A stretch of DNA of 59,127 nucleotides, taken from contig CAZGEO010000002.1 in NCBI GenBank assembly GCA_964525295.1, positions 324,551-383,677 on the forward strand, in the 5' to 3' direction. Position numbers and translations under genes: made by a program. Origin of the DNA: an uncultured Candidatus Saccharibacteria bacterium. GTDB lineage: Bacteria > Patescibacteriota > Dojkabacteria > GCA-002793355. The stretch's first letter is position 1; the number at the start of each line of letters is the position of its first letter. The notes beneath the pieces are model-generated. The model had not been told where the DNA came from, did not search any database, and saw only the letters and a list, made by a program, of their open reading frames with translations. Of this stretch, positions 461 through 54,614 are shown piece after piece.

Positions 461-596
461 TGGGGTTCGAAACTCAAAGGAAACAACAATAATTTATTGT
501 TGAGAGAAGAGTGGGACTGTGCCAAATAACCTCAAAAAAATCGAGGTGCAATTTCGGTGATGAATCAACGTAAGACAAATGTTATGAGATTCCTGA
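461..596 (+). ncRNA. tRNA-associated structured motif, copy 1 (Thr locus)
   Basis: Collinear with copies at 14346-14506 and 54453-54583; 528-568 is 36/41 identical to 54519-54559. Helices 461-467/528-534, 484-490/496-502 and 554-557/593-596. Confidence 0.7.
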
Positions 597-647
597 CTAG
601 TCGAATATTTCAATTATTATCTTCAAATCTTTCTTTGGGTAAAAACA

Positions 648-687
648 GGGTAGCGTTACAAGATAAAAATCATCAATAACGCTACCC
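648..687. terminator. Inverted repeat, probable terminator for the minus-strand gene at 701-1255
   Basis: GGGTAGCGTT 648-657 / AACGCTACCC 678-687 with a 20-nt loop; A-tract at 641-645 reads as a U-tract on the minus strand. Confidence 0.55.
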
Positions 688-700
688 AGTGAACATTACC

Positions 701-1255
701 CTACGGGTCATTTTTTTGTAGAAACGGCCCGTAGTCGATGACGGCAATAATTACAGTCATAATTATTGTCGTCAATATTACAAACAGTACCTTTTCTCCA
801 AGCATTTCTGCTGTTTTAGCTAAGCGGAGAAGGTAGAGGATTCCTGCAGCTGCAACTGCAAAGGAGATTGTATGGGAAAAAAATCTCGGAGTTAACCAAG
901 ATTCTCTCTTGAATGATGCGACTGAGAGCAAGGCTCCCATTATAGCACCAACCAAGAGATCCCTTTGCCAGTCTCCCCATTGGGATACATAAATGTATAC
1001 CCACGAGAAAACTGACAAACCAGCCCCGTATCCCAATGTACCAAGAAAAGTTGATTCCTCTTGGTCAAGGCTGGTGAAACGGAGCTTAATATTTTCTGTT
1101 AGGCTAATGACTATTGCAGTAGTCATCATCCCAAGAAAACTAAGCACATATGGCAGTAAACCATCTGTACCTAGTGCAAACACCATCCCTACCATAGCAG
1201 GAATGTTCTGGATACACTCAATTACGAGCACCCAAAGAAAAATCTTTAATTTCAT
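701..1255 (-). CDS. Multi-pass membrane protein, function unknown
   Basis: Several hydrophobic segments. Start moved to ATG 1255, which has AGGAG just upstream. Confidence 0.75.
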   Translation of the reverse strand: MKLKIFLWVLVIECIQNIPAMVGMVFALGTDGLLPYVLSFLGMMTTAIVISLTENIKLRFTSLDQEESTFLGTLGYGAGLSVFSWVYIYVSQWGDWQRDLLVGAIMGALLSVASFKRESWLTPRFFSHTISFAVAAAGILYLLRLAKTAEMLGEKVLFVILTTIIMTVIIAVIDYGPFLQKNDP

Positions 1256-1477
1256 TATTTCTCCTGATGCCCATAATTTGCTTGTTTCAAGCGAAGGCAT
1301 TGTTCAGAAGAGTAATAACTCTTACAAACACTACCTTCGACTTGAATTTTTTAATGTTCACTCACTAATTGAAATCTGACTAACAACGTCAAAAATTTAG
1401 TGTGCTAGCTATTATACTATGGGGTTTAATTTACTTCAACTAAAACATCTTGAAAATAAAATGTGCTAAACTTTCAC

Positions 1478-2098
1478 ATGACAACACTAAACCTCCTCAA
1501 CAACCTCAAAACCTATTACTCCGCCAAGGCCGAGCCAACCCTCGTCACTCTCCCCAAACTGCATTTTTTAGCAGTTGATGGCCATGGCGATCCAAATACC
1601 TCACAAGAGTTTAAAGATGCAGTAGAAGCTCTGTTTTCGGTGTCTTACACACTCAAATTCATGGTAAAAAAAGGCCCTATGCAAATTGATTACAAAGTTA
1701 TGCCCCTAGAAGGTTTATGGTGGTGTTCTACAATGGAAGAATTCACTGTAAAAGACAAGTCGAATTGGGATTGGACGTTGCTTATATTGCAGCCCGATTT
1801 CATCACAATTGAGATGGTAAAAGAAGCGAAAGAAAAGGCGCAATCGAAGAAGCAGAATGCAAAAATTGCGCCACTCAGGTTAATAGAATACGAAGAAGGG
1901 CAGGCAGTACAACTACTACATGTTGGGCCATATTCGGCAGAAGCTGAAAATATTCAAAAAATACACGATTATATTAGGGAAAGTGGTGGGAAGTTCAATG
2001 GATTGGTACAGAAACATCACGAGATTTATCTTAGTGATATGAGAAAAACGGCGCCAGAAAAACTCAAAACCATTATTCGCCAGTCATATGTTGTGTAG
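1478..2098 (+). CDS. GyrI-like small-molecule-binding domain protein
   Basis: Motifs FLAVDGHGDPN, YKVMPLEGLWW, QLLHVGPY and HHEIYLSD..KT.PEKLKTIIRQ. Start ATG 1478 follows TGCTAAACT. Confidence 0.85.
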   Translation: MTTLNLLNNLKTYYSAKAEPTLVTLPKLHFLAVDGHGDPNTSQEFKDAVEALFSVSYTLKFMVKKGPMQIDYKVMPLEGLWWCSTMEEFTVKDKSNWDWTLLILQPDFITIEMVKEAKEKAQSKKQNAKIAPLRLIEYEEGQAVQLLHVGPYSAEAENIQKIHDYIRESGGKFNGLVQKHHEIYLSDMRKTAPEKLKTIIRQSYVV

Positions 2099-3086
2099 GT
2101 GCAAGCTCTTTGACGATTTCGTTAAATTGATTATTCCAGGTATCGCCATTTGCACTTTTGATCAATTCTCCGTTAGTTATCATGAAAAATGGAGTCTTCC
2201 CATCGATATTCTGTTGTTGAGAAAGTTTGTAAGTAAGATAAATTTTTGACAAAATTTTGACTATTTGCGTCAGTTTTCCCATACCTAATCCACTAAATGC
2301 TGCTGCTATTGCATCAGCACTACTTGTTTCTAGGAATCTTACAAGTTTTGTAATATCTTTTGCAATATTTTGTAATAATCGCTGATTCTCGGTTATCAAT
2401 TGTCTTAGCAAAAAGTTTCCAAGTGATTCGGAATCTTCGAATAAGTGAATGGGAGAACTATTGTAAAATCCAAGTATTATTGGTTGGTCTCCTATGAAAA
2501 AATCCCCTCGTTTGAATTCTCGTTCAATTGCTGAACCTATACGGAATTCTTGAAATCTGGAGGCAGCAATCCTTTTTAGTATTACCCCTGCGGTAATATC
2601 ATTTAGCATTCGATAAAATATAATCGGGGGTATGTTATTCTTCTCGAAAAGTCGATTTAAGAGCTGAAACTTTGCAGCGTCACTTGTGATGTTATCAAAC
2701 AAGTACTGATGCACAATTGCAGATTGAATGTATTGAATTCTCAATCTCTCGTAAATAAGCGCAACAGAATTAATAGGAGTTTGCGAGTTTAATCTGTTAA
2801 TATTTGCTGAGGCCTCTTGCAATGTTCTCAATTCAGGTGAAAGTTGATTTTTTTGTGTATCTTCTAAAAGTAGTTCCCTAAAGTTTTTATGCGAAAAACT
2901 CCTACAAGTAAAAACTTTCCAATCGTGTGGTTTTCTTAAATCTACAGTCACATATTCTTTTACGCTATCTTTCAATGTCGGATCCATTCTTACTTCTTGG
3001 ATATTTAGCGCAGTTACAAGATTTTCAAATGCTTTTGATCCAACGAAGGTAGTAGATATTTGGTTTTTGTTATTAAGGTTGCCCAC
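2073..3086 (-). CDS. Hypothetical protein (337 aa)
   Basis: Long ORF filling the gap between recognised genes; no recognisable motif. Confidence 0.65.
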   Translation of the reverse strand: MGNLNNKNQISTTFVGSKAFENLVTALNIQEVRMDPTLKDSVKEYVTVDLRKPHDWKVFTCRSFSHKNFRELLLEDTQKNQLSPELRTLQEASANINRLNSQTPINSVALIYERLRIQYIQSAIVHQYLFDNITSDAAKFQLLNRLFEKNNIPPIIFYRMLNDITAGVILKRIAASRFQEFRIGSAIEREFKRGDFFIGDQPIILGFYNSSPIHLFEDSESLGNFLLRQLITENQRLLQNIAKDITKLVRFLETSSADAIAAAFSGLGMGKLTQIVKILSKIYLTYKLSQQQNIDGKTPFFMITNGELIKSANGDTWNNQFNEIVKELAPTQHMTGE

Positions 3087-3131
3087 TATTGAGCATTTTA
3101 CCCTATAGCGTGCTGTCTGTACAGAACGATA

Positions 3132-3401
3132 CTAAATAAAGCCTTGTATTGCTGCAACTAACCCGAGCGCAATCCAAATGATATTCAAGAAAACTGGTTG
3201 CCAATTTTTGTCTTTCCAGGCATCGAAAAGCATTGCAAGGGCGCCAGAAATATTGAGAAATATGACAAGATAACTTGAGGGAGGGTAGATACCAAGTGTT
3301 GTAACTGCATATGCGCCAAGAATTGCTAAAACTCCATACCAACTGAAACCTTCAATGATCATAATTGCTAAAGGTGAAAGTTTTGGTGTTTGTTTTTTCA
3401 T
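3132..3401 (-). CDS. Small membrane protein (CBU_0592-like pattern)
   Basis: Three hydrophobic helices with WYGVLAILGAY...LNISGAL...VFLNIIW. Start ATG 3401 has TATACT 5 nt upstream. Confidence 0.7.
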   Translation of the reverse strand: MKKQTPKLSPLAIMIIEGFSWYGVLAILGAYAVTTLGIYPPSSYLVIFLNISGALAMLFDAWKDKNWQPVFLNIIWIALGLVAAIQGFI

Positions 3402-3434
3402 TAAAAAGTATACTCTATTTTCTGTGTGCACAGC

Positions 3435-3476
3435 AAGTCCAACAAGTTGACAATATGTGGACTTAATTATTATAAT
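3435..3476 (+). promoter_or_regulatory. Sigma70 promoter with overlapping inverted repeat (candidate operator) for the TrmB-family gene
   Basis: TTGACA 3447-3452, 18-nt spacer, TATAAT 3471-3476, ATG at 3482. AAGTCCA 3435-3441 / TGGACTT 3458-3464 flank the -35. Confidence 0.7.
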
Positions 3477-3481
3477 ACATA

Positions 3482-4258
3482 ATGCAGTTGCAAAAAATGC
3501 TAGAAGAACTTGGATTAACCTCGAATGAAATCACCGTATATATGACCTTATTGAATTATGGTGGTGCATCAGGCGCTGAGCTACAACAGCTAACAGAATT
3601 TGAAAAATCATCGTTGTATAAATCTTTAAAGAGTTTAATTGATCAAAAATTGGTATCGACTACAGGTAGTAAACGAAAACAGCGCTTTTATCCAGCCGAT
3701 CACAATGCAGTCATTAATGAATTCGATAAAAAAATCGCCTCGATTGAAGCTGCAAAGAAAACATTTGCAGTTTTTGCTTCAAAGCTCGAAAAGTATGCTG
3801 CTGAGGCGTACAAAGATGACAATGTCAAAATATTTACTGGAGATAAGGCGATTTATAACTACCATAAAGAATTTCTTGCTAAAAAAATTACTATGCTACG
3901 CACAATAGCAAATTCACATGTAAGTCATAAAATCGGAAGTTCTTATGACGAAGTTAAGAAGGTAAATGAGTGGTTTATACCACAACGTGTTGCTAGTAAA
4001 ATTTCTATTCGAGTACTTTATGGTAAAAATGACAAACCAGATGAATACGATGTGAGTAATCAATCACTTTTAAAAGAATGTCGAAGTTATCCAAAAGACC
4101 TCAATTTGCCTAGTACTTTAACCGTTGGCGACACCTTGGTCGCCTTTAGTACTCTAAAAAGAGGAAAATTTTGGGGAATTGTGATAAAAGACAAATTGAT
4201 TGCCCAACTGCTCATAGCAATATATGACACATTATGGGAGCATGGCACAACAAAATAA
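3482..4258 (+). CDS. TrmB-family transcriptional regulator (wHTH plus effector domain)
   Basis: N-terminal LEELGLTSNEITVYMTLL...LYKSLKSLIDQKLV and a C-terminal PLD-like effector region ending IYDTLWE. Confidence 0.85.
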   Translation: MQLQKMLEELGLTSNEITVYMTLLNYGGASGAELQQLTEFEKSSLYKSLKSLIDQKLVSTTGSKRKQRFYPADHNAVINEFDKKIASIEAAKKTFAVFASKLEKYAAEAYKDDNVKIFTGDKAIYNYHKEFLAKKITMLRTIANSHVSHKIGSSYDEVKKVNEWFIPQRVASKISIRVLYGKNDKPDEYDVSNQSLLKECRSYPKDLNLPSTLTVGDTLVAFSTLKRGKFWGIVIKDKLIAQLLIAIYDTLWEHGTTK

Positions 4259-5579
4259 TAATCAGGGGCGAGAAGTACTTGAAGATATCTTACCCAAATT
4301 TAAGTTTGATCCGTCAACAACGAGAGTTTTAGAACCATTTACTCTGTCTGAGTTTGAATCACGAGTTGGCAATGAGCGTGAAAGTGCGCTTCATTATACA
4401 CAACGAATGTTTGAATCGTACAGAAGAACATTTAAAAGAGCGTTAGATTTGTCGTACAAAGAGGTTTTGCAACTTGAAAAAGAGTATGACAATAATGATT
4501 TACTTCGAAAAAATGATTCGAAAAATGTTTCACTTTCAGCTCCAAAGATTCTCAGAAAACTTCATGAAACCGGTGTTATTAACGAAGTGAAAAAAGCAGT
4601 ACAGGAGAATATAAACAGCGAAGAAATTATGATGGCGTTATTAGCTGAAGTAGCAATGATGTCTGGAGGAAGTGTTTTAGTGTCAAAAAAAGGTAAGCCT
4701 GCAAGTGATGCTGATAAGGATTACCGTAATTCACTCTTCGGTCATACTTTTGTCACAATGCAACCTAAAGCTCAAATACATTTTATATTAAGTCATTTTT
4801 GGGGTAGATTCGCACGAATTGTAGCTGACGATAAAGGTATTTTAGCTGGCAAAGACTTTGCTGCAAAAGACACTTTCTGGTCTGTTCTATCGCTTGGTTT
4901 ATCTCTACAGATTGCAGAAGGAACAGCTGATCCTGAAATAGTTAAAAAATGGATTACTGATCGACCTAATGGTGTCAAATGGCATATGAACCGTGACACA
5001 GGACAACAAAATTACGCTGACGCTCGACAAATTGCGATAAATCGGTTCATTGCAGGTACAAGTGATGTCGAATCAAAAATGAGAATGCAGCGAGTTTTTG
5101 AAAATATTCTCATCCGCAGTCAAAAGAAATTTTCAGCCGAAGGCCAACCAGGCGAAAGCTTTTATGGCGCTGATTTACAAGGCTTTCATGTAACCTATCG
5201 GGGTGAAAGAGTAAGAGATTTACACATCAAAACAACGCGGAATGGCCAGTTTATTCAATTTTATATCGATAGTGAAGAGCCAAGAACTGATAGAACACCT
5301 TGTGTTGTAAATTTGGCGTTACGAAAAAATAGTGCAGGGGGAATGATGATGCATATTAATAAATTTGTTGGTGATGAGCAATCAGTAGATTTACCGTTTT
5401 TCGTTGCGCACTTTGTGCCGTCACTTGCTGAAGCGATTAAAAATGTAACTGGTCAAAGTCTTGTCTTTTCAACTACATTTGATAAAGGAATTGTTGTGGC
5501 ACCGTTTGTAATGTTTTTGCGAAGAGGTTTTTTGGTAGAATCTTCAGATGATACGACGAGTGTCGTTTACGTGACGTAA
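4242..5579 (+). CDS. Hypothetical protein (~445 aa)
   Basis: Long ORF overlapping the TrmB stop. Start is 4224 or 4242. No recognisable motif. Confidence 0.7.
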   Translation: MAQQNNNQGREVLEDILPKFKFDPSTTRVLEPFTLSEFESRVGNERESALHYTQRMFESYRRTFKRALDLSYKEVLQLEKEYDNNDLLRKNDSKNVSLSAPKILRKLHETGVINEVKKAVQENINSEEIMMALLAEVAMMSGGSVLVSKKGKPASDADKDYRNSLFGHTFVTMQPKAQIHFILSHFWGRFARIVADDKGILAGKDFAAKDTFWSVLSLGLSLQIAEGTADPEIVKKWITDRPNGVKWHMNRDTGQQNYADARQIAINRFIAGTSDVESKMRMQRVFENILIRSQKKFSAEGQPGESFYGADLQGFHVTYRGERVRDLHIKTTRNGQFIQFYIDSEEPRTDRTPCVVNLALRKNSAGGMMMHINKFVGDEQSVDLPFFVAHFVPSLAEAIKNVTGQSLVFSTTFDKGIVVAPFVMFLRRGFLVESSDDTTSVVYVT

Positions 5580-12160: not shown

Positions 12161-12163
12161 GAA

Positions 12164-14178: not shown

Positions 14179-14207
14179 TTGACATTGATGAGGTCGTACG
14201 GTAAAAT
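14179..14207 (+). promoter_or_regulatory. Sigma70 promoter of tRNA-Asp
   Basis: TTGACA 14179-14184, 17 nt, TAAAAT 14202-14207. Confidence 0.8.
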
Positions 14208-14219
14208 AACGGTATCAAT

Positions 14220-14294
14220 GGGGCTGTAGCTCAACTTGGTTAGAGCACCCGCCTGTCACGCGGGTGGTTGCGGGTTCGAATCCCGTCAGCCCCG
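14220..14294 (+). tRNA. tRNA-Asp(GTC), no encoded CCA
   Basis: Acceptor GGGGCTG/CAGCCCC, anticodon arm CCCGC-CTGTCAC-GCGGG, T-arm GCGGG-TTCGAAT-CCCGT, discriminator G. Confidence 0.97.
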
Positions 14295-14295
14295 T

Positions 14296-14341
14296 ATGGG
14301 TGTTTGGCACTGTGTAAACGGTGGCAGACACCCATGTTTTT
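14296..14341 (+). terminator. Intrinsic terminator-like hairpin right after tRNA-Asp
   Basis: ATGGGTGTTTG/CAGACACCCAT stem with inner CACTG/CGGTG, followed by GTTTTT. Confidence 0.8.
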
Positions 14342-14345
14342 ATGT

Positions 14346-14506
14346 AGGGATTCGAGACTCAAGGAGAATGTAGTCACCTACATTCGACGAAGAGCTGGAA
14401 CGCGCCTAAAATCCTTTGAATTTATCAAGTGCAAATTTCGTGACGAGTGTGCGTAACTTTAACCAGGTAGAAGTGTTGCGAATGTAGATTAGTGAGTCCG
14501 AAATTT
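14346..14506 (+). ncRNA. tRNA-associated structured motif, copy 2 (Asp locus)
   Basis: Helices AGGGATT 14346-52/AATCCTT 14410-16, GAATGTAG 14366-73/CTACATTC 14378-85 and AAATTTCG 14433-40/CGAAATTT 14499-14506. Confidence 0.7.
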
Positions 14507-14525
14507 GGTGGGTGTTCGAATCCCG

Positions 14526-14870
14526 TCAGAATTTTGTAAGTAGCAAACTTTTTAAACGTTTTATATTAGTTAAGAATAGATGAACATCTTTTTGTCGGTC
14601 GGAAAGATCGCGAACCTCGTAGGGGTTCGCGTCTTCCTCCTTTACCGATTCTTTAGGAATATCGACGCTTGAGTTAAATACCTGTTTGAATAAATCGTAA
14701 TCAATCATGATTTTTAGTGCGTGAAAAAAATAGGCGATTTGAGCCTCTACAAAGGAAAGTAGCGAGTTATATGATTCTATGAGTTCATCGCGAGAAAGAA
14801 TAACACCGTACTTCTTTTTAAAAAATTGTTGGAGTTTTTGTAATTGAACATCCGTTGGTTTGGCAGACAT
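14526..14870 (-). CDS. Hypothetical protein, possibly a mobile-element remnant
   Basis: N-terminus LQKLQQFFKKKYGVILSRDEL. The TGA stop falls inside the tRNA duplication, and the 3' half spans a DNA hairpin at 14601-14637. Confidence 0.45.
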   Translation of the reverse strand: MSAKPTDVQLQKLQQFFKKKYGVILSRDELIESYNSLLSFVEAQIAYFFHALKIMIDYDLFKQVFNSSVDIPKESVKEEDANPYEVRDLSDRQKDVHLFLTNIKRLKSLLLTKF

Positions 14871-15050
14871 GTGAATTTTGTACGAACACAAAAAACAAGA
14901 AAAACTTTGAAGAGATTCTTAATTAGTTGTGTATGACTTGTTCACTGCCGAAATGTTCTTAATAATTATATCAGAGGTAGTAATTATTGTTAATGTCATT
15001 TCACGACAAAAAGTTGTACAATATTTTTGTTTAAAATTTACTTCAACGAT

Positions 15051-15380: not shown

Positions 15381-15386
15381 ACAAAT

Positions 15387-42523: not shown

Positions 42524-42550
42524 TACTTCATTGTACTGAAGAAAGTGCTC

Positions 42551-42979
42551 TTACGCTAGCTTTTCGTCCAAGGCCTCATTTACCAATTTGTCGGCTGCCT
42601 TATTGTCTTTTCTTAACACATGAGTAAGTTTTGCAGTCGCAAACTTTTCTAGCAGTTCTTTTATTGAGGTAGCGTAACGTTTCAAATGCTCTTCACGAAT
42701 CTTATAAATTCCTGTTACTTGTCTAATCATCAATTCGCTATCTGCGAAGATTTGAATGTTTTTGCAGTTTGAATAAAAGTTTACTACATGAGTAAGTCCA
42801 CTTAGTAAGGCTTGATATTCAGCTTCATTATTCGTTGCAATACCAATATACTTTTTGTGCGCTTCAAGAATTTCGCCTGTTTCAGCTTCAATTACAAAAC
42901 CGATGCCTGCATGTCCAGGATTGTTTCTTGAACCGCCATCTGTACGGAGAATTAAGGTTGAGTAGTTATCATTTGCCAT
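42551..42979 (-). CDS. rnhA: Ribonuclease HI (archaeal/Rv2228c-type)
   Basis: TDGGSR.NPG.AG, ATNNEAEY, DSEL and N..AD.L.N motifs. Confidence 0.9.
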   Translation of the reverse strand: MANDNYSTLILRTDGGSRNNPGHAGIGFVIEAETGEILEAHKKYIGIATNNEAEYQALLSGLTHVVNFYSNCKNIQIFADSELMIRQVTGIYKIREEHLKRYATSIKELLEKFATAKLTHVLRKDNKAADKLVNEALDEKLA

Positions 42980-42999
42980 TGACCGTATAATACCATGAA

Positions 43000-44199
43000 A
43001 TGAATCTTGAAAAATACCTTTGGAATTACCTTGTTAAGCAAGGTCAAAAACTTGAAGAAACTAATAAGCATTGCTATGGTTGCGGTTCGTGTCGCTATTA
43101 CGATTTCAGTTATGAATCACAACTCGAAGGAAAACGTCAATGGGTTGCTCATGTCATGGCAGAGAATGCCGGATATTCCGAGGAAATTACTATAGAAGCG
43201 TCGCCAAAAACAAAATATTATCGTGGTCGTATGGACTTCGTTGCGACAAAAGGAATGATCGGAATGCGTAGAAGTGGTGGGTTTAATAAAGTTTATGATG
43301 TTGAAAATTCGTGTATCTATGATGAAAATATCGGTGAGATACTTACCAAACTTCGAAAATTCAAGAAGTTTCCCGATTATGATTTAGTAACTCATGAAGG
43401 GGTGATTCGCTACTTTGTAACTAGAAAAACGCGACATAACGAAGTAGAACAATACCTACTATCTGTAGTTGTAACAGAAATTAAAGAAGATTTCGTAGAT
43501 TCGCTTAAATCATTTCTTAAAGATGAAGATCTTTGGGAATATTTCACCGTGATCTGCATAATATTACAACCTTCAAAAGCAGATTTATCGTATGGAGAGG
43601 TCAGTACTTATCTAAAAGGTTTAACATTAAAGCAAGATCTCAAAATCGATAAGAAGATAGTTACTTTAGATATTGGGCCACAATCATTCTTCCAAGCCAA
43701 TACCGTAATGTTTGAAAAAGTTTTAGAATATATGAGCGCAAATTTAGCAGAACACGAATATACGTATATATACGATCTATACGGAGGTGTCGGCAGCATT
43801 GGCATTGCGCTTGCTACTTCCAAAACGATATTGCACATGGCCGAGAATAATCCTGAGAATACAATTCTTTTTGAAGCAAACTGCAAACAAAATAATATTG
43901 CTAGTAGAGAAGTTTTTGAAGGTACTGTAGCAGAATTTCTTGATAACAAAGAATTTGAAAAAGATAATCTTGTAATATTCGATCCACCAAGAATCGGGTT
44001 AGAAGAAAAGGTTGCAAGGAAATTCTTAACTAAAAAGAATTTACCTAATACGCTCATATATATGTCATGCAATCCAGTAAGCCAGGCGACAGATCTCAAA
44101 ATTCTATCTGAAAAATACAATATTCAAAGTATTAAAGCATTCGATATGTTCCCTTATGCATCACATATCGAGACGGTAGCGATACTTCGCCTTCGCTGA
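43000..44199 (+). CDS. RNA (uracil-C5)-methyltransferase, RlmD/TrmA family, without TRAM domain
   Basis: CYGCGSC cluster, SFFQAN, DLYGGVG, DPPR.G, catalytic YMSCNP and DMFPY.SHIE. Confidence 0.88.
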   Translation: MNLEKYLWNYLVKQGQKLEETNKHCYGCGSCRYYDFSYESQLEGKRQWVAHVMAENAGYSEEITIEASPKTKYYRGRMDFVATKGMIGMRRSGGFNKVYDVENSCIYDENIGEILTKLRKFKKFPDYDLVTHEGVIRYFVTRKTRHNEVEQYLLSVVVTEIKEDFVDSLKSFLKDEDLWEYFTVICIILQPSKADLSYGEVSTYLKGLTLKQDLKIDKKIVTLDIGPQSFFQANTVMFEKVLEYMSANLAEHEYTYIYDLYGGVGSIGIALATSKTILHMAENNPENTILFEANCKQNNIASREVFEGTVAEFLDNKEFEKDNLVIFDPPRIGLEEKVARKFLTKKNLPNTLIYMSCNPVSQATDLKILSEKYNIQSIKAFDMFPYASHIETVAILRLR

Positions 44200-44220
44200 A
44201 GAACTGTGATACGATAAATC

Positions 44221-45453
44221 ATGAGCTTGTCGCGTGTACATTTACTTATTCTACTATTGTTCACATTCATTTTACCTATTAAAACAGTTGCAGCCGAAGA
44301 TTTAGCAAGTCCAAATTATAAACTTGTAGATCCAGAATTGGCGGCAACTTCAGGTGAAACCACGTCTTCTAATTACCGAACATTATTAACTGGTCAAAAT
44401 TGGCTTACTAATACGCAAATTTCATCTTCGTTGTACAAAATCGGTTCTGGACAAGCCTATACATTTATGGCCAATACACCAAAAATTCGTTGTGCAGAAA
44501 CAACAACAGATCAAGCAACAACAACTTGTACGGCTTTGCCAACACCTATTACTGCAAATGGGGGAATGCAAAGTGTTTGCGGCGAAGCAGGTTGTTATGA
44601 TAGAGCAAAGATTGAGATTGATACACAGGGTAATCCAGCAGATACTCTCTATATTATTGAGATAAGCACCGATAATTGGACTACAGTAAACGTTATTGAT
44701 GGAAATACTCGAGTGCCCAAACCACTAATTTCAAAATCAATTTCAGATTACAAAACGATGTCTGCATGGGAAGCAGCTCCTTGGAATTCATTCAATGTAC
44801 TTGGTCTACGACCACAAACCACTTATCAAGTTCGTTTACGAGCGCTTCATGGAGATTTCACAGAGACTGCTAACAGTCCTACAAAATCATTTACTACTGC
44901 TTCACCAACGATGCAATTTGATATCAACATAGCAAACGCATTTAATTCTTCAACTAACCCTCCTCATGTCGTTAATTTTGGTAAGATTCTGCCCGGCACA
45001 ATTTCATCGACATTTTTGCAGAATACCGTATATGTTAAGCTTTCAACCAACGTTCATACAGGTGCGTTAGTATTTGTTTCAAGTGCAAATAATGGGCTTT
45101 ATAGTAATGATTCAAATTATACAATTCCCAGTATTGATTCGTTAGATCTTTCTTCGGAAATCTCCGGATTCGGTGCGAAAATTTCATCTCATCAGGCGAT
45201 ACCGAATACTACATTTGGTATTGCTACTCGCTACAATAATGGTGCATTAAATCAAATTGGTTCAATTTTATCAGCACCGCAGCTTCTCATGTGTAGTGAT
45301 AGTAATGCAACACATGATTGTGTTTCAGGAGATACATCGTGGGTTGATTCTTTTGAAGCCAGAGTTGACTTACTTACAAAAGCTGCACCTAACACACCCT
45401 CTGTGAATGATTTCTCAGAAACGATAACTTTTACTGCCATTGCAAATTGGTAA
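44221..45453 (+). CDS. Secreted protein with FN3-like and WxL-like beta domains
   Basis: Signal peptide, GLRPQTTYQVRLRA (FN3-like), C-terminal SETITFTAIANW. Confidence 0.7.
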   Translation: MSLSRVHLLILLLFTFILPIKTVAAEDLASPNYKLVDPELAATSGETTSSNYRTLLTGQNWLTNTQISSSLYKIGSGQAYTFMANTPKIRCAETTTDQATTTCTALPTPITANGGMQSVCGEAGCYDRAKIEIDTQGNPADTLYIIEISTDNWTTVNVIDGNTRVPKPLISKSISDYKTMSAWEAAPWNSFNVLGLRPQTTYQVRLRALHGDFTETANSPTKSFTTASPTMQFDINIANAFNSSTNPPHVVNFGKILPGTISSTFLQNTVYVKLSTNVHTGALVFVSSANNGLYSNDSNYTIPSIDSLDLSSEISGFGAKISSHQAIPNTTFGIATRYNNGALNQIGSILSAPQLLMCSDSNATHDCVSGDTSWVDSFEARVDLLTKAAPNTPSVNDFSETITFTAIANW

Positions 45454-45454
45454 T

Positions 45455-46309
45455 ATGATAACCGCCACCCCTGCAGAAATATATCTTGATAATAAAGAGA
45501 GTATTCAAATAACATTAAAAACCGACTTTCTACTAACAATAGACAATATTTCATTGCATATGGCTTCAGTAGAAAAGAATAGGCTAGTCACCAATGAATG
45601 TCACTTGTCACCAGCTAGTTTAAGAATTTCAAATAACTCACTCGTCACAATAAATCGTAACCAGCTGCATGAAGACATACAACGCTGTTCGCAACATTCT
45701 GGAGTACCAACGTTAAAAATCACTTCAAAAGATTCAAGCATTACCGATAAGTTTTCAAATATTGAAGAAGTTCTTCTCCCCATATTCGTGCTCGATTCAA
45801 ATTCTACCTTACAACAAAGTAGAACAGCCGATACTATCACTAAACTGCAAAAGGAGTTAGCAATTATCGATTTTTCTTGCACTCCAAGCATATTGATTTG
45901 GCAAAATGAGGTCGATTGTAAGGGCACCATAACAAATACAACAGAATCTTATGTGTTGGCAACAATAACAGCATATGAACAAGAAAAATTTCCACAATTT
46001 GTTACAAAATCCCAGAAAATTATTGAACCACGCGTCTTACTATTACCGGGGCAGTCAATCTCTTTTCGCGACACTTTTAAGCAAGATTCGGTAGTGTTGG
46101 GCACAAAAAGTCAGGAAGTTTTTGTTGCATTCAGCGATCCAGCTGGAGGAACACCTTTCATCGCAACTGCAAGCAATACCACTTACTTGCTCTCATTGGG
46201 GTTACTTGTTTTAGTTACTAGCGTTCTCACCGTTTTGTTTGCTATACTGATGGTGAAGATTAAGAATAAATTTACTGTCCAAACCGATGTCAATAAAGGA
46301 ACCGTTTAA
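45455..46309 (+). CDS. Surface protein with C-terminal TM anchor
   Basis: Beta-rich ORF ending in a hydrophobic helix and basic tail. Confidence 0.65.
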   Translation: MITATPAEIYLDNKESIQITLKTDFLLTIDNISLHMASVEKNRLVTNECHLSPASLRISNNSLVTINRNQLHEDIQRCSQHSGVPTLKITSKDSSITDKFSNIEEVLLPIFVLDSNSTLQQSRTADTITKLQKELAIIDFSCTPSILIWQNEVDCKGTITNTTESYVLATITAYEQEKFPQFVTKSQKIIEPRVLLLPGQSISFRDTFKQDSVVLGTKSQEVFVAFSDPAGGTPFIATASNTTYLLSLGLLVLVTSVLTVLFAILMVKIKNKFTVQTDVNKGTV

Positions 46310-48587
46310 ACTACCGAAGCTCGATTATTTCGATATCTTTAGCATACTCATATGGCTAACACTTTTAATTCCAGCTGTACAGTTACCGAACAATAGTAGT
46401 TTCACATTTCTACGAAGTATCATTCTTATCTTCCTTATACTTTCATTTACTCTCTTTATTGCGATAAAAACTGTAAAGGAAAAAAGAATGTACTTTTACT
46501 CAGCGACACCAGGCAATATTTCGATGTTAGTATTTGCTGCAAGCATCGTTCTTTCACTTATCTTTTCCGCTTCATTCATTGACTCACTATTTGGCTATGA
46601 TTTTTCATTCGCATCAAGCACTTTGGTGTTATTGGCGTTACTATTGCTTTACTTCACCCTTAAAGTAGCAGGGCTTTCACTTGAAGTCTCTATTTCAAGA
46701 GTTTTTTCTGCACTACCACTCACCATTATAACTGCTAGCTTTGTTTCACTGTTCGCATATTTTCTACCGGAATCTGCATATTATTCAGTGCTTGGGAATT
46801 ATGCGACATATTTTACGTTCGCGAAAAGTGCACCCTTTGCGTTACTTGGTTCCTCAAGTGCAACGGTGTTATTAAGCGTGATCGCTTTGGTTGTCGCGTC
46901 ACACCAAATTACCAACACTTTTAAACTTCCACTTAAGGTCAATTTTGATTTTGTTAGAAAATTTACAACACTGGTTTTATTATCAATACTACTTTCTTTC
47001 ACGATATATACGAGTTTTGTTTCAACACAATTATTTTCTTTATGGAATTTTGTGATATTTATTATAGTTGGAATAACTCTTCTGTATTCGTATCTTCAAC
47101 ACAAAACTAAGCAAACGACCAGAACATTAGCAATATTCGCTAGTGCTATTGTATTGACATTCTCATTAGGTCTTCTGTGGGGTAAGGTAGGATTTATAGG
47201 CGCATTACCGTCATTATCAATTTCTCAATCTGAATCTACTGAAGTACTGAAACAAGCATTTTTGAATAGACAAATACCTTTATTTAGAGAATTTGTAGGA
47301 TTTGGTTCGGGAACATATCCGTATTTATATCTGCAATATCGTTCACTTGATGCAGCAAAAAGTTATGGTAATCAGACTTTCTTTTTTAAACCCGCAACAT
47401 TTATTGAGGAATTCTTCACAGAAACTGGGTTGATTGGGGTAATCTCACTATTGTCACTATTCATTATTGTTATTTACTCTTATGTAAAGGCCAGTAACAG
47501 GAAATCTTTGCTCTTGGAATTCAATATATTACTTATTATGCTCGCAAGTATTTTTATTGCACCATCATCACTCGCGTCAATTACCGTATTGATACTTGCA
47601 TTTGCAGCATTTTTTGACAAGTACGAATCTTTGCCAGAACAATTGCCTGCAATAAGAGCTTTCGAAATCAAAGAGACTTTGTATACTAATAGATCAATTT
47701 CGCGAACTGGATTGGTTTTCATAGTGTTTTCAGTAATTGCTTCAGCCTTATTAATACTATCCGTTATTCCAGCAATGCAAACAATAATCTTGAACACGAA
47801 AGCACAATCGCGCCTCATTATTGGGCAAACTGAGGCAGCAAAATCAGTTGAAGTTGGAGCCAAAACACTCCAAAGCTCATTTGAAATTGCAAATCGACCT
47901 ATTCTTTTATGCAGTAGCTGCACAACACTTTCGCCGTTACGTCTGAATTCGCTTATTGCATTAGAATCAATTTACAAAACCTTACCCGAAGATAAGCAAA
48001 AGGAGTCTGTTGAACTGCAACAAATCTACAACTTAATACTTGCAGAATCTTCTTCACTTTTCTCTAACACTAGTGCTCGCTACGATCATTGGTTATTGCT
48101 ATCTCAAGCGTACCGATTACTTGCCGAACAAGAGAAATCCTCAACCTTCTATACGATGTCGCTGCAAAGCGTTAAGAATGCTCTTGTAAATAATCCTTTA
48201 TCTATAGAAGCCAATTACGTTTATATCGATACTTTAATGACAATTGGCAACACGAATGAGATTAATACTGAAATTGCAGGAAGAATTCAACTTTTAAAAC
48301 AGCTGGTTGGTACGCCAATTCAGTTACAATTAACTGAAGCTATTCTATACGCTAGAATTCAGCAATTTAGCACTGCTTTAGATATTCTTGAAAAGATCAA
48401 GACTGAAACTGAATCGTTGACAAGCTTTACAGAAGAGCAAAAGAAACAAGTAATTGATATCGTTAATGCACGAATCGCAGAAATCAAAAAAGCAGAACAA
48501 GAAGCTAACTCAAAACCACAACAAACAATTCAACCTTCTGCTCAACCAACGCGTACTCCAGAACCTACACCTATACCAACGAAATAA
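46287..48587 (+). CDS. Polytopic membrane protein, O-antigen-ligase-like N-half with TPR-like C-terminal region
   Basis: More than 10 TM segments, a GFGSGTY loop, a helical-repeat C-terminus and a Pro/Thr-rich tail. Confidence 0.7.
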   Translation: MSIKEPFKLPKLDYFDIFSILIWLTLLIPAVQLPNNSSFTFLRSIILIFLILSFTLFIAIKTVKEKRMYFYSATPGNISMLVFAASIVLSLIFSASFIDSLFGYDFSFASSTLVLLALLLLYFTLKVAGLSLEVSISRVFSALPLTIITASFVSLFAYFLPESAYYSVLGNYATYFTFAKSAPFALLGSSSATVLLSVIALVVASHQITNTFKLPLKVNFDFVRKFTTLVLLSILLSFTIYTSFVSTQLFSLWNFVIFIIVGITLLYSYLQHKTKQTTRTLAIFASAIVLTFSLGLLWGKVGFIGALPSLSISQSESTEVLKQAFLNRQIPLFREFVGFGSGTYPYLYLQYRSLDAAKSYGNQTFFFKPATFIEEFFTETGLIGVISLLSLFIIVIYSYVKASNRKSLLLEFNILLIMLASIFIAPSSLASITVLILAFAAFFDKYESLPEQLPAIRAFEIKETLYTNRSISRTGLVFIVFSVIASALLILSVIPAMQTIILNTKAQSRLIIGQTEAAKSVEVGAKTLQSSFEIANRPILLCSSCTTLSPLRLNSLIALESIYKTLPEDKQKESVELQQIYNLILAESSSLFSNTSARYDHWLLLSQAYRLLAEQEKSSTFYTMSLQSVKNALVNNPLSIEANYVYIDTLMTIGNTNEINTEIAGRIQLLKQLVGTPIQLQLTEAILYARIQQFSTALDILEKIKTETESLTSFTEEQKKQVIDIVNARIAEIKKAEQEANSKPQQTIQPSAQPTRTPEPTPIPTK

Positions 48588-53174: not shown

Positions 53175-54202
53175 CCGTTCACTTTCTGTTTGTGCTTGAC
53201 CGGTACCAATACTACACCAATCGAATTGCCTGCAAATCTACCTGCTGCAATGTCAGGATTTCCTTTTCTATCATTCGAGAGGAAGTTGATTGCATTTTGG
53301 GCCAAAATACTGAATTCAGTCAATTCAAGATTTTCATTCCTCACTCTAGTTTCTAGATATTTTTGAAATAATTGCCCTAGATCATTTATTATGTCGAAAG
53401 TTGTAACAGGCAAGTGGAGTGCTTTTGCCGTTGCAAGAAGAACTGCATTAATATTACCTGTTTCCATTTTCTGTGTTAATCTAAATTGCAAGTCGCTTGA
53501 TTCTAGAATTTGATCGAGTAATTGGGGAGTGCGTGCTTCAGAAACATTAAGATTATCATATCTTACAAAATCAATCTCACTGCTTACGACATAAGGAATT
53601 ACGTGTAATGAATGATTATGGAGTAATTCACCAATTTCGCGAATTCTTTGACGCGTAACTGTTCTGTCATATTTTTTCACATGATCACAATCAATTACGT
53701 AATACAATAATAATTGTTTTAGTAAGTCAGGTGAAACTTCAATACTATAATCCCTACGATTGAGTTGTTCTTGCACAATGACAGAAATTGCAAATGCCAC
53801 GTTATTTAAAACCTCGTTGGTGACTCCATCATAATTTACATTGCCCGACAATGCTTCTAAATAGGGAAGTCTACAAGCTTCTTCAATTTTCTTACAGGCA
53901 AAATAAGTTCTCATATATTTCGATAAATCTGGTTCTAGAGGCATTGTTGGTAAAGGATAAGAAATCTGGTTAAAATTGATTTTATCGATTTCTGCTTCAA
54001 TCATGGCAAATTCTTCTGGCATTGTTTTTTCAAATTTAATAACTTGATCTCTCAGATACTTTTCTGTTGTAGTATTTTTTCTTTCTTGATTTGAGCTTTT
54101 GGGCACTAGACTAATTTCTGCCTGAATATTTGTTATTGTCATAATTGCATAAAAGAATATAAGTCCTATATTATGCTTTAGTTTTCTGGAAAATCTTGAC
54201 AT
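53171..54202 (-). CDS. Hypothetical protein
   Basis: 343-aa ORF convergent with mutL; start is uncertain (54202 or 54142). Confidence 0.65.
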   Translation of the reverse strand: MSRFSRKLKHNIGLIFFYAIMTITNIQAEISLVPKSSNQERKNTTTEKYLRDQVIKFEKTMPEEFAMIEAEIDKINFNQISYPLPTMPLEPDLSKYMRTYFACKKIEEACRLPYLEALSGNVNYDGVTNEVLNNVAFAISVIVQEQLNRRDYSIEVSPDLLKQLLLYYVIDCDHVKKYDRTVTRQRIREIGELLHNHSLHVIPYVVSSEIDFVRYDNLNVSEARTPQLLDQILESSDLQFRLTQKMETGNINAVLLATAKALHLPVTTFDIINDLGQLFQKYLETRVRNENLELTEFSILAQNAINFLSNDRKGNPDIAAGRFAGNSIGVVLVPVKHKQKVNG

Positions 54203-54262
54203 AGCAATAATTTATCTCAAAATCAAACCTACGATGAATTTTGGCGTTCAAAATCGTTGCTC

Positions 54263-54291
54263 TTGAAAACTACTCTTAACTTTGCGATAAT
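54263..54291 (+). promoter_or_regulatory. Sigma70 promoter of tRNA-Leu
   Basis: TTGAAA 54263-54268, 17 nt, extended TGC-GATAAT 54283-54291. Confidence 0.7.
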
Positions 54292-54299
54292 TCACTTAT

Positions 54300-54382
54300 G
54301 CCGGGGTGGTGGAATGGCAGACACGCTACCTTGAGGTGGTAGTGCTCGAAAGGGTGTGGAGGTTCGACTCCTCTCCTCGGCA
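54300..54382 (+). tRNA. tRNA-Leu(GAG), no encoded CCA
   Basis: Acceptor GCCGGGG/CCTCGGC, anticodon arm CTACC-TTGAGGT-GGTAG, long variable arm, T-loop TTCGACT. Confidence 0.96.
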
Positions 54383-54614
54383 TTTTAGAAAAGATTTCAT
54401 AAACTTCTGATTAACAAGTAACTTATGGAATGTTTTCTAAATACCAAAATGTGAGGAGTTGAAACTTGAGGAAAACGTAAGTGACCTTACGGTTGACGAG
54501 AGCGGGGCTGCGCCTAACAACCTCTGAAAATTCGATGTGCAATTTCAGTGATGAATCAATGAAAGAAGATGAATCCTGAAATTGGTGGGTTGCCGACTCC
54601 TCTCCTCGGCATTT
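54383..54614 (+). mobile_element. Miniature tRNA-Leu-associated element bounded by a tRNA 3' duplication
   Basis: The 21-bp CGACTCCTCTCCTCGGCATTT at 54365-54385 is repeated at 54594-54614, 229 bp away, and encloses the structured motif. Confidence 0.7.
54453..54583 (+). ncRNA. tRNA-associated structured motif, copy 3 (Leu locus)
   Basis: Helices GAGG..TT 54453-60/AACCTC 54519-24, CGTAAG 54476-81/CTTACG 54486-91 and AATTTCAG 54541-48/CTGAAATT 54576-83. Confidence 0.7.

What the first reader, a model, noticed from the sequence alone, without database searches (positions are those of the whole stretch)
461..54583. Unrecognised covarying structured motif repeated downstream of three different tRNAs (Thr 461-596, Asp 14346-14506, Leu 54453-54583)
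Seen: the three copies are collinear, with consensus GGxxTT(C)GARACTY-AGG-[hairpin]-GAC/GA-GAG-..GG..C.GCGCC-TAA-AAYC...GTGCAA(A)TTTC.GTGAYGA...GA.TCC.GAAATT. Thr 528-568 and Leu 54519-54559 are 36/41 identical. Base-pairing is kept while the sequence changes. P1 is TGGGGTT/AACCTCA, AGGGATT/AATCCTT and GAGG..TT/AACCTC. The inner hairpin is CAACAAT/ATTGTTG, GAATGTAG/CTACATTC and CGTAAG/CTTACG. P4 is AAATTTCG/CGAAATTT (Asp) versus AATTTCAG/CTGAAATT (Leu), continued by a bulged U, GAC/GTC versus GAT/ATC, and a tandem GA/GA. G-U wobbles occur on the + strand, the same sense as the tRNAs. Inference: this is a conserved structured RNA (or single-stranded DNA recognition structure) tied to tRNA loci. 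I do not recognise it as a named family. It is the best candidate here for an undescribed system.
Basis: partly seen in the sequence, partly recalled or inferred. Interest (0 to 1): 0.9.

Follow-up and report, generated by a model that had tools for sequence, protein, structure and literature searches.

The report
Small tRNA-gene-specific insertion element
Three tRNA genes in this candidate-phyla-radiation bacterium are each followed by a ~200-300-base non-coding insert with a conserved folded core, flanked by an inverted and a direct copy of that tRNA's own T-arm; it looks like an undescribed miniature mobile element that targets tRNA genes, not a free-standing host RNA.

Summary
The three collinear copies exist, occur nowhere else in the window, and match no Rfam family. 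Two hairpins (P2, P4) covary strongly on the tRNA-sense strand.

- an intact tRNA;
- a long hairpin with locus-specific sequence (b);
- a 9-nt reverse complement of that tRNA's T-loop and 3' T-stem (c), which is the "GGxxTTCGA" start of the motif;
- a 130-165-nt conserved core (d);
- a direct repeat of the tRNA's 3' part (e): 16 nt for Asp, 21/21 nt for Leu.

Segment c tracks tRNA identity. It pairs with e, or with the tRNA itself in one giant hairpin.

The element is absent from the tRNA-Asp gene of the two relatives examined, and from 185,000 reference genomes, JGI metagenomes and viral contigs by pattern search. A decayed second copy sits beside Leu. Spacer b differs between two ~98% identical strains.

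Best reading (confidence 0.45) is a non-autonomous insertion element specific to tRNA genes, possibly integrating through a folded single-strand site. No recombinase was found, so the mechanism is inferred. Rivals are a co-transcribed tRNA-trailer RNA, a guide-like homing RNA, and island relics.

The parts
228..303 (+). tRNA-Thr(CGT), the target or anchor of copy 1. Its T-loop to 3' end (283-302) is the left arm of the giant hairpin.
304..451 (+). Thr spacer b, a long imperfect hairpin that abuts the tRNA 3' end. In the sister strain (L032) its sequence is ~50% different, but it is still a hairpin.
452..475 (+). Thr segment c. GGTTTGGTGTGGGGTTCGA is an imperfect reverse complement of the last 19 nt of tRNA-Thr; the core GGGGTTCGA is at 462-470. 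It is followed by the conserved AACTC.
476..600 (+). Thr core d. P2 is 484-490/496-502. The conserved block runs GAG..GCC.AA.A.CCT..GTGCAA (509-550). P4 is 550-557+559-561 / 581-583+584-591, kept through 4 G-U pairs. The GGTGGGT segment is replaced by CCTGACT.
601..609 (+). Thr e relic. TCGAATATT is a decayed copy of the tRNA-Thr sequence TCGAATCCC and still pairs with c through G-U pairs.
14219..14295 (+). tRNA-Asp(GTC), with a strong promoter-like site at 14179-14207.
14296..14346 (+). Asp spacer b, a hairpin with 18-nt arms (14296-14313 / 14318-14335) followed by GTTTTTATGT.
14347..14355 (+). Asp segment c. GGGATTCGA is the exact reverse complement of the tRNA-Asp sequence TCGAATCCC.
14356..14514 (+). 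Asp core d. P2 is 14366-14373/14378-14385. P4 is 14433-14440+14442-14444 / 14496-14498+14499-14506, with a bulged U and a tandem G-A. There is an extra ~31-nt insert in the P4 loop. The core ends in GGTGGGTG (14507-14514).
14514..14529 (+). Asp segment e. GTTCGAATCCCGTCAG is a 16/16 direct repeat of tRNA-Asp 14274-14289, or 19/21 if extended to 14509.
54299..54383 (+). tRNA-Leu(GAG), with a promoter-like site at 54263-54291.
54384..54452 (+). Leu spacer b, an A+T-rich hairpin with 19-nt arms (54384-54402 / 54423-54441) plus a linker.
54453..54461 (+). Leu segment c. GAGGAGTTG is the reverse complement, with one G-T, of the tRNA-Leu sequence CGACTCCTC.
54462..54593 (+). Leu core d. P2 is 54476-54481/54486-54491. 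P4 is 54541-54548+54550-54552 / 54573-54575+54576-54583, with a tandem G-A. The core ends in GGTGGGTTGC (54584-54593).
54594..54614 (+). Leu segment e. CGACTCCTCTCCTCGGCATTT is a 21/21 direct repeat of 54365-54385, that is, the tRNA-Leu T-loop to 3' end plus 2 nt of genomic trailer.
54750..54775 (+). Decayed partial second copy of the core (TGATGAGAGCGGGGCTACTCCTAACA, 23/26 identical to 54494-54519), downstream of the Leu element.

Best explanation
The three motifs are the conserved cores of a family of short (about 210-310 bp) non-coding insertion elements. They have no gene of their own and sit specifically at the 3' end of tRNA genes in one Dojkabacteria-like (Patescibacteria) lineage.

Shown:
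- Each unit has the order tRNA, hairpin b, anti-T-arm c, core d, tRNA 3' repeat e.
- Segments c and e match the cognate tRNA.
- The core keeps two hairpins and a closing helix on the tRNA-sense strand.
- The unit is missing at the tRNA-Asp gene of the two relatives examined.
- Copies decay or pile up.

Inferred mechanism:
- The element integrates by site-specific recombination inside the T-loop of the tRNA gene.
- It brings a replacement tRNA 3' part, so the gene stays intact, and it pushes the original 3' part downstream, where it becomes e.
- Its recombination site is a folded single strand. The tRNA-like 3' part pairs with c, and b is the variable tip of that hairpin. This resembles integron attC sites or the CTX-phage attP hairpin.
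- The core d is the cis-acting part needed for replication or mobilisation, or it encodes a small RNA.
- The recombinase is supplied in trans from elsewhere in the genome or from a helper element.
For: - **Direct repeats of the tRNA 3' part start in the T-loop.** Asp has 16/16 (19/21 extended) and Leu 21/21, against shuffle maxima far lower. The Leu repeat includes 2 trailer bases, so it was copied from DNA or a precursor and not from mature CCA-tRNA.
- **c is the reverse complement of the cognate T-arm and tracks tRNA identity.** c_Leu with tRNA-Leu gives -18.3 kcal/mol against -9.7 to -12.2 for the other tRNAs. c_Thr and c_Asp give -16.4 to -19.2 with Thr, Asp and Pro, against -10.1 to -13.7 with Leu. 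The conserved ACTY that follows c also tracks tRNA position 51, read directly from the sequences.
- **T-loop, tRNA end, b and c fold as one long hairpin at every locus and in the sister strain.** Energies are -64, -66, -47 and -35 kcal/mol. For Asp the + strand is much more stable than the - strand (-46.7 against -31.6).
- **It behaves as an insertion.** It is absent downstream of tRNA-Asp in relatives whose CofD is 58-59% identical and absent next to a tRNA-Thr(TGT) gene in a further relative. The model R1 finds only the known copies in 215 kb.
- **There is turnover.** A decayed second copy lies beside Leu. The Thr copy has a diverged 3' third. Spacer b of Thr is replaced between strains that are otherwise 95-99% identical, while the tRNA and c-d stay nearly identical.
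- **It is non-coding.** No ORF is shared by the copies and the flanking ORFs are unrelated.
- **A relative carries an integrated element at the same gene.** It has a large serine recombinase and a Rep gene at tRNA-Asp, so these tRNA genes are used as integration sites in this group.
Against: - No integrase, transposase, reverse transcriptase or TnpB/IscB-like gene was found in the window among the ORFs that got a Pfam scan or a precomputed Pfam annotation; several ORFs were not scanned.
- No empty site in a close strain, no circular junction and no autonomous copy was seen.
- No copy was found outside two ~98% related strains, which is odd for a horizontally moving element. The scans needed exact matches at 18-19 positions.
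- The Asp repeat e stops 5 nt before the tRNA end, although a displaced native 3' end should be complete.
- The right hairpin arm also complements 3 nt of the 5' T-stem. An excised element would not carry those bases, and the GGTGGGT segment that would replace them pairs poorly.
- The copies are only 53-70% identical yet keep their helices. That also fits a functional RNA under long-term selection.
- A gene-less integrative unit of ~200 bp has no described precedent that I could find.
Confidence: 0.45

Rival explanations
1. It is a host or selfish structured RNA made as the 3' trailer of the tRNA transcript (a 3' external-transcribed-spacer RNA). The strong tRNA promoter drives tRNA-b-c-d-e. 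After tRNA 3' processing, the c-d-e RNA closes on itself through the c/e helix (P0) and acts in trans or in tRNA metabolism. For example, it could act as an antisense or mimic of the T-arm of its own tRNA.
For: - Strong promoter-like sites lie upstream of tRNA-Asp and tRNA-Leu, with no consistent promoter or terminator between tRNA and core.
- P0, P2 and P4 are kept by compensatory and G-U changes on the tRNA-sense strand across copies that are only 53-70% identical.
- Minimum-free-energy folds of the Asp and Leu units both close with c/e.
- A G-to-A change in the sister strain turns a G-U pair into A-U.
Against: - It does not explain why e copies genomic trailer bases, why b is swapped between strains, or why decayed copies exist.
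- It is missing in relatives.
- All downstream genes are convergent, so there is nothing for it to regulate in cis.
- The Asp spacer looks like a terminator placed before the core.
- No expression data are available.
Confidence: 0.2
2. It is the relic of ordinary double-strand, integrase-mediated islands. Phage- or ICE-like elements integrated into the T-loop of each tRNA gene and later lost almost all their DNA. What remains is attL, a shared end region (the 'core') and attR (e).
For: - tRNA 3' direct repeats that start in the T-loop are the classic signature of integrase target sites. This rests on established knowledge (Williams 2002, Nucleic Acids Res), recalled and not read here.
- A relative carries a recombinase and Rep element at tRNA-Asp.
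- Sequence divergence between the strains jumps from ~1.5% to 8-14% exactly after e at the Asp locus.
Against: - Three independent deletions would have to leave the same collinear 130-165-nt piece directly abutting both junctions.
- It does not explain the cognate inverted copy c, the continuous giant hairpin, or the compensatory evolution of P2 and P4.
- No integrase remnant is present.
Confidence: 0.13
3. It is a nucleic-acid-guided homing element. The RNA (or single strand) c-d-e is a scaffold whose 3' segment e (16-21 nt, identical to the tRNA gene's coding strand downstream of the universal GGTT of the T-loop) and 5' segment c act as programmable recognition modules. They serve an unknown nuclease, recombinase or transposase, and direct insertion next to the matching tRNA gene. 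This would resemble the homing crRNA of type V-K CRISPR-associated transposons, omega RNAs of TnpB, or bridge RNAs of IS110.
For: - A scaffold followed by a 3' target match of 16-21 nt is the layout of TnpB/Cas12 guide RNAs.
- The matched segment starts just after an invariant GGTT in two different tRNAs.
- c and e change together with the target while d stays conserved.
Against: - No effector gene is present in the window.
- The guide would be sequestered by c in P0.
- The match is to the neighbouring gene only.
- No known guide-RNA family matches in Rfam.
- Only two intact examples exist.
Confidence: 0.12

Closest known systems
tRNA-gene-targeting integrative elements (prophages, ICEs and genomic islands that cross over in the T-loop)
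   Same: The tRNA gene is intact and followed by inserted DNA, which ends in a direct repeat of the tRNA 3' part beginning in the T-loop. Remnants lie in tandem at the same tRNA. The insert is absent from relatives.
   Different: The insert is only ~200-300 bp and has no integrase or any other gene. It carries an inverted copy of the T-arm and a conserved folded core. The Asp repeat does not reach the tRNA end.
Folded single-strand recombination sites (integron attC; CTX-phage attP hairpin used by XerCD)
   Same: It is a long imperfect hairpin whose sequence varies freely while the structure is kept. The hairpin has a paired base, an unpaired middle (Asp, Leu) and a variable tip. The order of parts after integration (restored target, hairpin, rest of element, displaced target half) is what a single-strand exchange followed by replication would give.
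   Different: The target would be a tRNA T-arm, not attI or dif. The R/L-box consensus (GTTRRRY/RYYYAAC) is not met. No IntI or Xer gene was seen. The mechanism is untested here.
MITEs and other non-autonomous bacterial repeats (REP/BIME, Correia, RPE, TIMEs)
   Same: It is short, gene-less, repeated, hairpin-rich, mobilised in trans (inferred), and decaying copies are present.
   Different: There are no fixed terminal inverted repeats and no short fixed target duplication. The 'ends' differ between copies and match the neighbouring tRNA. It sits strictly at tRNA genes and in one orientation.
Guide-RNA-directed mobile elements (type V-K CAST homing crRNA targeting tRNA genes; TnpB/IscB omega RNA; IS110 bridge RNA)
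   Same: A structured scaffold carries a 16-21-nt match to the adjacent tRNA gene, and the target-matching segments co-vary with the target.
   Different: There is no effector gene and no CRISPR repeat. The match would be base-paired to c. The element is ~200 bp in all. It matches no Rfam family, and Rfam may not hold all guide-RNA families.
Box C/D (k-turn) RNAs
   Same: P4 of Thr and Leu reads GUGAUGA ... CUGA, with tandem G-A pairs next to a Watson-Crick stem.
   Different: The bulge is 1 nt (a U), not 3. Asp has GUGACGA/CCGA. There is no room for guide segments. Rfam C/D models score 15-17 bits against gathering scores of 45-75.

Membership tests
Any Rfam 15 family | Score at or above the family's gathering threshold | tested here: not met
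   In the whole window only the four tRNAs pass. E-value mode on the three loci gives nothing or chance-level hits.
Box C/D RNA / k-turn | Box C RUGAUGA and box D CUGA forming a k-turn with a 3-nt bulge, plus 10-12-nt antisense guide(s) | tested here: not met
   The boxes are present in Thr and Leu only. The bulge is a single U, the C-to-D distance is 21 nt (Leu), and Rfam scores are 15-17 bits against gathering scores of 45-75.
tRNA-targeting integrative element (integrase type) | Direct repeat of the tRNA 3' part flanking the insert, with the tRNA gene restored | tested here: met
   Asp 16/16 (19/21) and Leu 21/21. The tRNAs are intact, with Rfam scores of 72 and 49 bits.
tRNA-targeting integrative element (integrase type) | Integrase or recombinase gene inside the element | tested here: not met
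   No shared ORF lies in the 200-300-bp units. No recombinase domain was found among the ORFs scanned or annotated on contigs.
tRNA-targeting integrative element (integrase type) | Presence/absence polymorphism or excision products (empty site, circular junction) | tested here: inconclusive
   It is absent in distant relatives and present in both close strains. Only spacer b differs.
Integron attC / CTX-type folded-strand site | Imperfect hairpin with conserved structure and variable sequence, formed by one specific strand | tested here: met
   The giant hairpin is found at all loci and in the sister strain. For Asp the + strand gives -46.7 against -31.6 kcal/mol for the - strand. Strand preference is weak for Thr and Leu.
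Integron attC / CTX-type folded-strand site | Core sites RYYYAAC / GTTRRRY (attC) or XerC/XerD arms (dif-like), and a cognate recombinase | tested here: not met
   The T-loop GTTCGAA and the right arm TCGAAAC do not fit the consensus (read). No IntI or Xer gene was found in the window.
MITE | Fixed terminal inverted repeats and a short fixed-length target duplication | tested here: not met
   The end segments differ between copies and match the local tRNA. The repeats are 16 and 21 nt.
TnpB/IscB omega RNA, Cas12 guide RNA, IS110 bridge RNA | Adjacent or overlapping effector gene, with a guide that matches the target or flank | tested here: not met
   A target match exists (e), but there is no effector gene and no Rfam hit. 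An effector elsewhere in the genome cannot be tested with these tools.
Group I / group II intron | Conserved catalytic core (P3-P9, or domains I-VI), insertion inside a gene, exon-binding pairings | tested here: not met
   There is no Rfam intron hit. The core is only 130-165 nt, and the unit lies after a complete tRNA, not inside it.

The most novel reading that the evidence does not exclude
The unit is a new kind of programmable, tRNA-gene-homing mobile element of candidate-phyla-radiation bacteria. It would be a gene-less ~200-nt RNA or single-stranded-DNA scaffold. Its two tRNA-matched modules (the anti-T-arm c and the tRNA 3' copy e) specify which tRNA gene it enters, and it is mobilised by an as yet unidentified trans-acting enzyme. 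Retargeting from one tRNA to another would happen by exchange of these modules.
Probability: 0.12. Interest if true: 0.9.

Novelty: new variant of a known kind. Interest (0 to 1): 0.6.

Why it matters
If the reading is right, tRNA genes of a streamlined Patescibacteria genome are colonised by a minimal, gene-less element. It repairs its target as it inserts, and it recognises that target through sequence copies of the tRNA's own T-arm.

That would make it the smallest tRNA-targeting integrative unit described. It would offer a natural example of a target-matched recombination site on a folded strand, and a handle on mobile DNA in a group where mobile elements are poorly known.

The practical point is that the motif should not be annotated as a host small-RNA gene without expression data. 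Such units can also break short-read assemblies: two contigs of this genome end at the copies.

If instead the c-d-e RNA is functional, it would be a new tRNA-linked RNA class with built-in complementarity to its own tRNA.

Tried and rejected
**Searches that found nothing**
- Rfam at gathering and E-value thresholds gave no family.
- Exact-pattern scans returned only G+C-rich coding chance hits or nothing. These covered 185,579 species genomes with 19 fixed positions, JGI metagenomes with 18 fixed positions, and IMG/VR with three patterns.
- blastn against phage and plasmid collections gave no match.
- Orthologous tRNA-Asp loci of relatives whose CofD is 58-59% identical carry no element (L007, L008). 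Nor does the tRNA-Thr(TGT) locus of a further relative, L033, whose neighbouring ORF is 49% identical.
- The covariance model R1 found no further copies in 215 kb.
- Five literature searches found no described precedent.

**Structures rejected**
- An alternative helix, GAGG/CCTC, is broken in Thr.
- A pairing of AACCUC with GGUGGGUU, suggested by the Leu fold, is not conserved because Thr has CCUGACU.

**Functions and families rejected**
- A protein-coding or cargo explanation fails, because no ORF is shared and the flanking ORFs are unrelated.
- Hammerhead ribozyme, RNase P RNA, tmRNA, retron and group I/II intron resemblances were considered from the sequence and dropped. The expected junctions or cores, the neighbouring reverse transcriptase, or any Rfam hit were missing.
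- P2 as a terminator for the convergent genes is unlikely. Thr has its own strong terminator-like hairpin at 645-690, and Asp lacks a T-tail.
- A target-primed reverse-transcription model was worked through. It would place the core inside the tRNA and not after an intact copy, so it was dropped.

**Uninformative**
- Low divergence of the Asp element between strains (1.8%) equals that of its left flank (CofD 1.3%), so it says nothing about selection.

Full report
**Setting.** The window is chromosomal DNA of a Patescibacteria bacterium close to Dojkabacteria (WS6).
- The genes are housekeeping ones: FtsW, CofD/YvcK, MutL, PBP, two-component systems, Dus, TrmA, RNase H.
- The named CofD homologues are from Dojkabacteria/WS6.
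- The nearest other genome in the protein collection is a ~98% identical strain (loci L006 and L032). After that, CofD identity drops to 58-59%.
- Four tRNA genes, all on the + strand, lie at 228-303 (Thr), 14219-14295 (Asp), 54299-54383 (Leu) and 55776-55851 (Pro).

- A gap-free pattern taken from the three copies matches exactly three times at 0 mismatches. With up to three mismatches it matches nowhere else in 59 kb, and the expected count is 0.01. A second pattern gives the same three sites.
- The 36/41 identity between Thr and Leu is correct. Over the core the copies are 53-70% identical.
- No ORF is shared by the copies.
- Rfam 15 reports only the tRNAs at gathering thresholds. In E-value mode it reports nothing meaningful. 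The best hits are C/D-box snoRNA models at 15-17 bits against gathering scores of 45-75, caused by GUGAUGA…CUGA in P4.

Every locus has the same five-part anatomy.
- **(a)** The intact tRNA.
- **(b)** A spacer of 51-150 nt. It is unrelated in sequence between loci but is always a long imperfect hairpin that starts within a few bases of the tRNA 3' end.
- **(c)** A 9-nt segment that is the reverse complement of the T-loop plus 3' T-stem of that same tRNA.
  - Asp: GGGATTCGA against TCGAATCCC.
  - Leu: GAGGAGTTG against CGACTCCTC, with one G-T.
  - Thr: GGGGTTCGA against TCGAATCCC. Here the complementarity extends, 16 pairs of 19, over the whole 3' end of the tRNA.
- **(d)** The conserved core of 130-165 nt. 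In Asp and Leu it ends in GAAATT(T)GGTGGGT.
- **(e)** A direct repeat of the tRNA's 3' part, starting in the T-loop.
  - Asp has 16/16, or 19/21 when extended.
  - Leu has 21/21, including two bases of genomic trailer.
  - In Thr only a decayed TCGAATATT remains.

**c matches its own tRNA.** Predicted duplex energies show that c is cognate-specific.

| c segment | With | Energy (kcal/mol) |
|---|---|---|
| c_Leu | tRNA-Leu | -18.3 |
| c_Leu | the other three tRNAs | -9.7 to -12.2 |
| c_Thr, c_Asp | Thr, Asp, Pro (near-identical T-arms) | -16.4 to -19.2 |
| c_Thr, c_Asp | tRNA-Leu | -10.1 to -13.7 |

The Y of the conserved ACTY that follows c also tracks tRNA position 51. It is T opposite A51 in Leu and C opposite G51 in Thr and Asp (read).

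**Structure.** I aligned five sequences: the three copies plus the sister-strain Asp and Thr copies.
- A structure made of P0 (c with e), P2 and P4 pairs in 92% of cells, against 27-56% when the partners are slid by 1-3 columns. Eleven pairs change on both sides, and 0 of 500 column shuffles reach the observed values.
- P2 is a perfect 6-8-bp hairpin with a completely different sequence in each copy.
- P4 (8 bp, a bulged U, 3 bp, then a tandem G-A in Asp and Leu) has four double compensatory changes between Asp and Leu. In Thr it is kept through four G-U pairs.
- G-U cells greatly outnumber A-C cells on the + strand, so the folding strand is the tRNA-sense strand.
It pairs in 73-77% of cells, no better than slid registers, and has no double changes. 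The only substitution in c between the strains, G to A in Thr, breaks P1 but turns a G-T pair into A-T in the pairing with the T-arm sequence.
- Because c is complementary both to e and to the tRNA's own 3' part, a second fold competes with P0. From the T-loop through the tRNA end and b to c, every locus forms one giant hairpin.

| Locus | Giant hairpin, + strand (kcal/mol) |
|---|---|
| Thr | -64 |
| Thr, sister strain | -66 |
| Asp | -47 (-32 on the - strand) |
| Leu | -35 |

- With only three independent copies the central part of the core cannot be resolved.

**Evidence that the unit is an insertion and turns over.**
- The tRNA-Asp genes of the two next relatives are followed by unrelated sequence. 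One of them instead carries an element with a large serine recombinase and a Rep gene that abuts the tRNA.
- A tRNA-Thr(TGT) gene next to a 49% identical homologue of the Thr-flanking ORF has no room for the unit.
- Model R1 finds only the known copies in 215 kb of window and fetched loci.
- Downstream of the Leu unit lies a decayed partial second core, 23/26 identical over the central block.
- The 3' third of the Thr core has diverged and its e is decayed.
- In the sister strain the Thr tRNA, c, d and the right flank are nearly identical to the window. Spacer b (~140 nt) is about 50% different, yet it is again a long hairpin, with a perfect 13-bp base that abuts the tRNA end and c. A simple way to get this is a new integration at the tRNA followed by homologous deletion between tandem cores. 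That route is inference.
- At the Asp locus, divergence between the strains is 1.3-1.8% from CofD through e. It jumps to 8-14% immediately after e.
- Short-read contigs of this genome end at window 14523 (inside e of Asp) and start at 54462 (the c/d boundary of Leu).

**What it most likely is.** The direct repeat that starts in the T-loop, with the tRNA gene kept intact, is the textbook footprint of site-specific integration into a tRNA gene. That statement rests on established knowledge and not on a paper read here.

Two features are unusual. The insert has no gene and is only ~200-300 bp. It also carries an inverted, cognate copy of the T-arm joined to the tRNA-like part by a hairpin that is free in sequence but conserved in structure.

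The model that accounts for the order of parts is a single-strand exchange between a folded hairpin site and the T-loop of the tRNA gene, followed by replication. In that site the tRNA-like 3' part pairs with c, and b forms the variable tip. The exchange yields exactly this order: tRNA (native 5' part plus the element's 3' part), b, c, d, GGTGGGT.., then the displaced native 3' part (e). This is how integron attC sites and the CTX-phage attP hairpin work. The core d would then be a cis-acting folded region or a small-RNA gene, and the enzyme would come from elsewhere. I give this family of explanations 0.45.

The steps shown are the anatomy, the cognate matching, the structure, the absence in relatives and the turnover. 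The steps inferred are the recombination mechanism, the single-stranded intermediate, trans mobilisation and any role of d.

The weak points are these:
- No recombinase was found.
- No empty site or circular junction was seen.
- No copy was found outside one lineage.
- The Asp repeat stops before the tRNA end.
- The right hairpin arm also complements three bases of the 5' T-stem, which an excised element would not carry.

**Rivals.**
- **A co-transcribed tRNA-trailer RNA closed by P0 (0.2).** It fits the promoters and the long-term conservation of structure. It does not fit the trailer bases inside e, the swapped spacer, the decayed copies or the absence in relatives. The downstream genes are all convergent, so a cis-regulatory leader is excluded.
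- **Relics of ordinary islands (0.13).** This fits the repeats but not the identical collinear core abutting both junctions, nor c.
- **A guide-like homing RNA (0.12).** A scaffold plus a 16-21-nt match that starts just after the invariant GGTT of the T-loop is attractive. But there is no effector gene, and the guide would be paired to c.

**Comparison with known systems.** The unit resembles tRNA-targeting integrative elements but fails the integrase-gene test. It resembles attC/CTX folded sites but fails their consensus and cognate-enzyme tests. It is not a MITE, because it has no fixed inverted repeats and no short fixed duplication. It is not a C/D RNA, an intron, or a member of any Rfam family. 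Five literature searches found no description of a gene-less, tRNA-specific unit of this design.

**Limits.**
- All homologue searches in public collections were exact-pattern scans, at positions that are invariant among only three copies. Absence elsewhere is therefore weak evidence.
- The rest of the source genome could not be read.
- There are only three independent copies plus two near-identical strain variants.

**Verdict.** It is most likely a new variant of tRNA-targeting mobile DNA and not a new host RNA system. Interest is 0.6.

Noticed in passing
window 55906-56016: Downstream of the fourth tRNA (Pro) lies a tRNA-3'-end-like fragment, GTTCAAATCCTGTCGTCCCCCA (55989-56010), 22/29 identical to the tRNA-Pro 3' part. 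Before it come CAAAATGTG and ..GATGA..CTAATTGGTTGGGC, which loosely recall the start and end of the element core. It may be a strongly decayed fifth copy, but the alignment score is not above shuffles.
   Followed up: partly
window 14530-17276: Right after the Asp element, divergence from the sister strain jumps from ~1.5% to 8-14%. The next genes include an OLD-family ATPase/TOPRIM nuclease (15387-17276; AAA_15 plus OLD-like TOPRIM). This suggests a variable, defence-type island next to tRNA-Asp.
   Followed up: partly
L007 1-4706: In a relative whose CofD is 58% identical, tRNA-Asp is abutted by a large serine recombinase gene whose end overlaps the tRNA 3' end. Next to it are a Rep (REP_ORF2-G2P) gene and a GmrSD-type nuclease gene. 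This is an integrated element at the same tRNA.
   Followed up: partly
L004 position 1 (= window 14523); L009 position 1 (= window 54462): Public short-read contigs of this genome end inside e of the Asp unit and start at the c/d boundary of the Leu unit. A 39.9-kb contig matches the distance between the two. The breaks may reflect population variants at these loci.
   Followed up: no
window 645-690: There is a strong 14-bp hairpin (ACAGGGTAGCGTTA / TAACGCTACCCAGT) with a T-run on the - strand. It is probably the terminator of the convergent membrane-protein ORF 701-1300.
   Followed up: no
window 40610-48587 and 2073-5579: Several large ORFs have no Pfam match: 637 aa (40610-42523), 410 aa (44221-45453), 284/289 aa (45440-46309), 766 aa (46287-48587), 451 aa (4224-5579) and 337 aa (2073-3086). 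They are lineage-specific proteins of unknown function.
   Followed up: no
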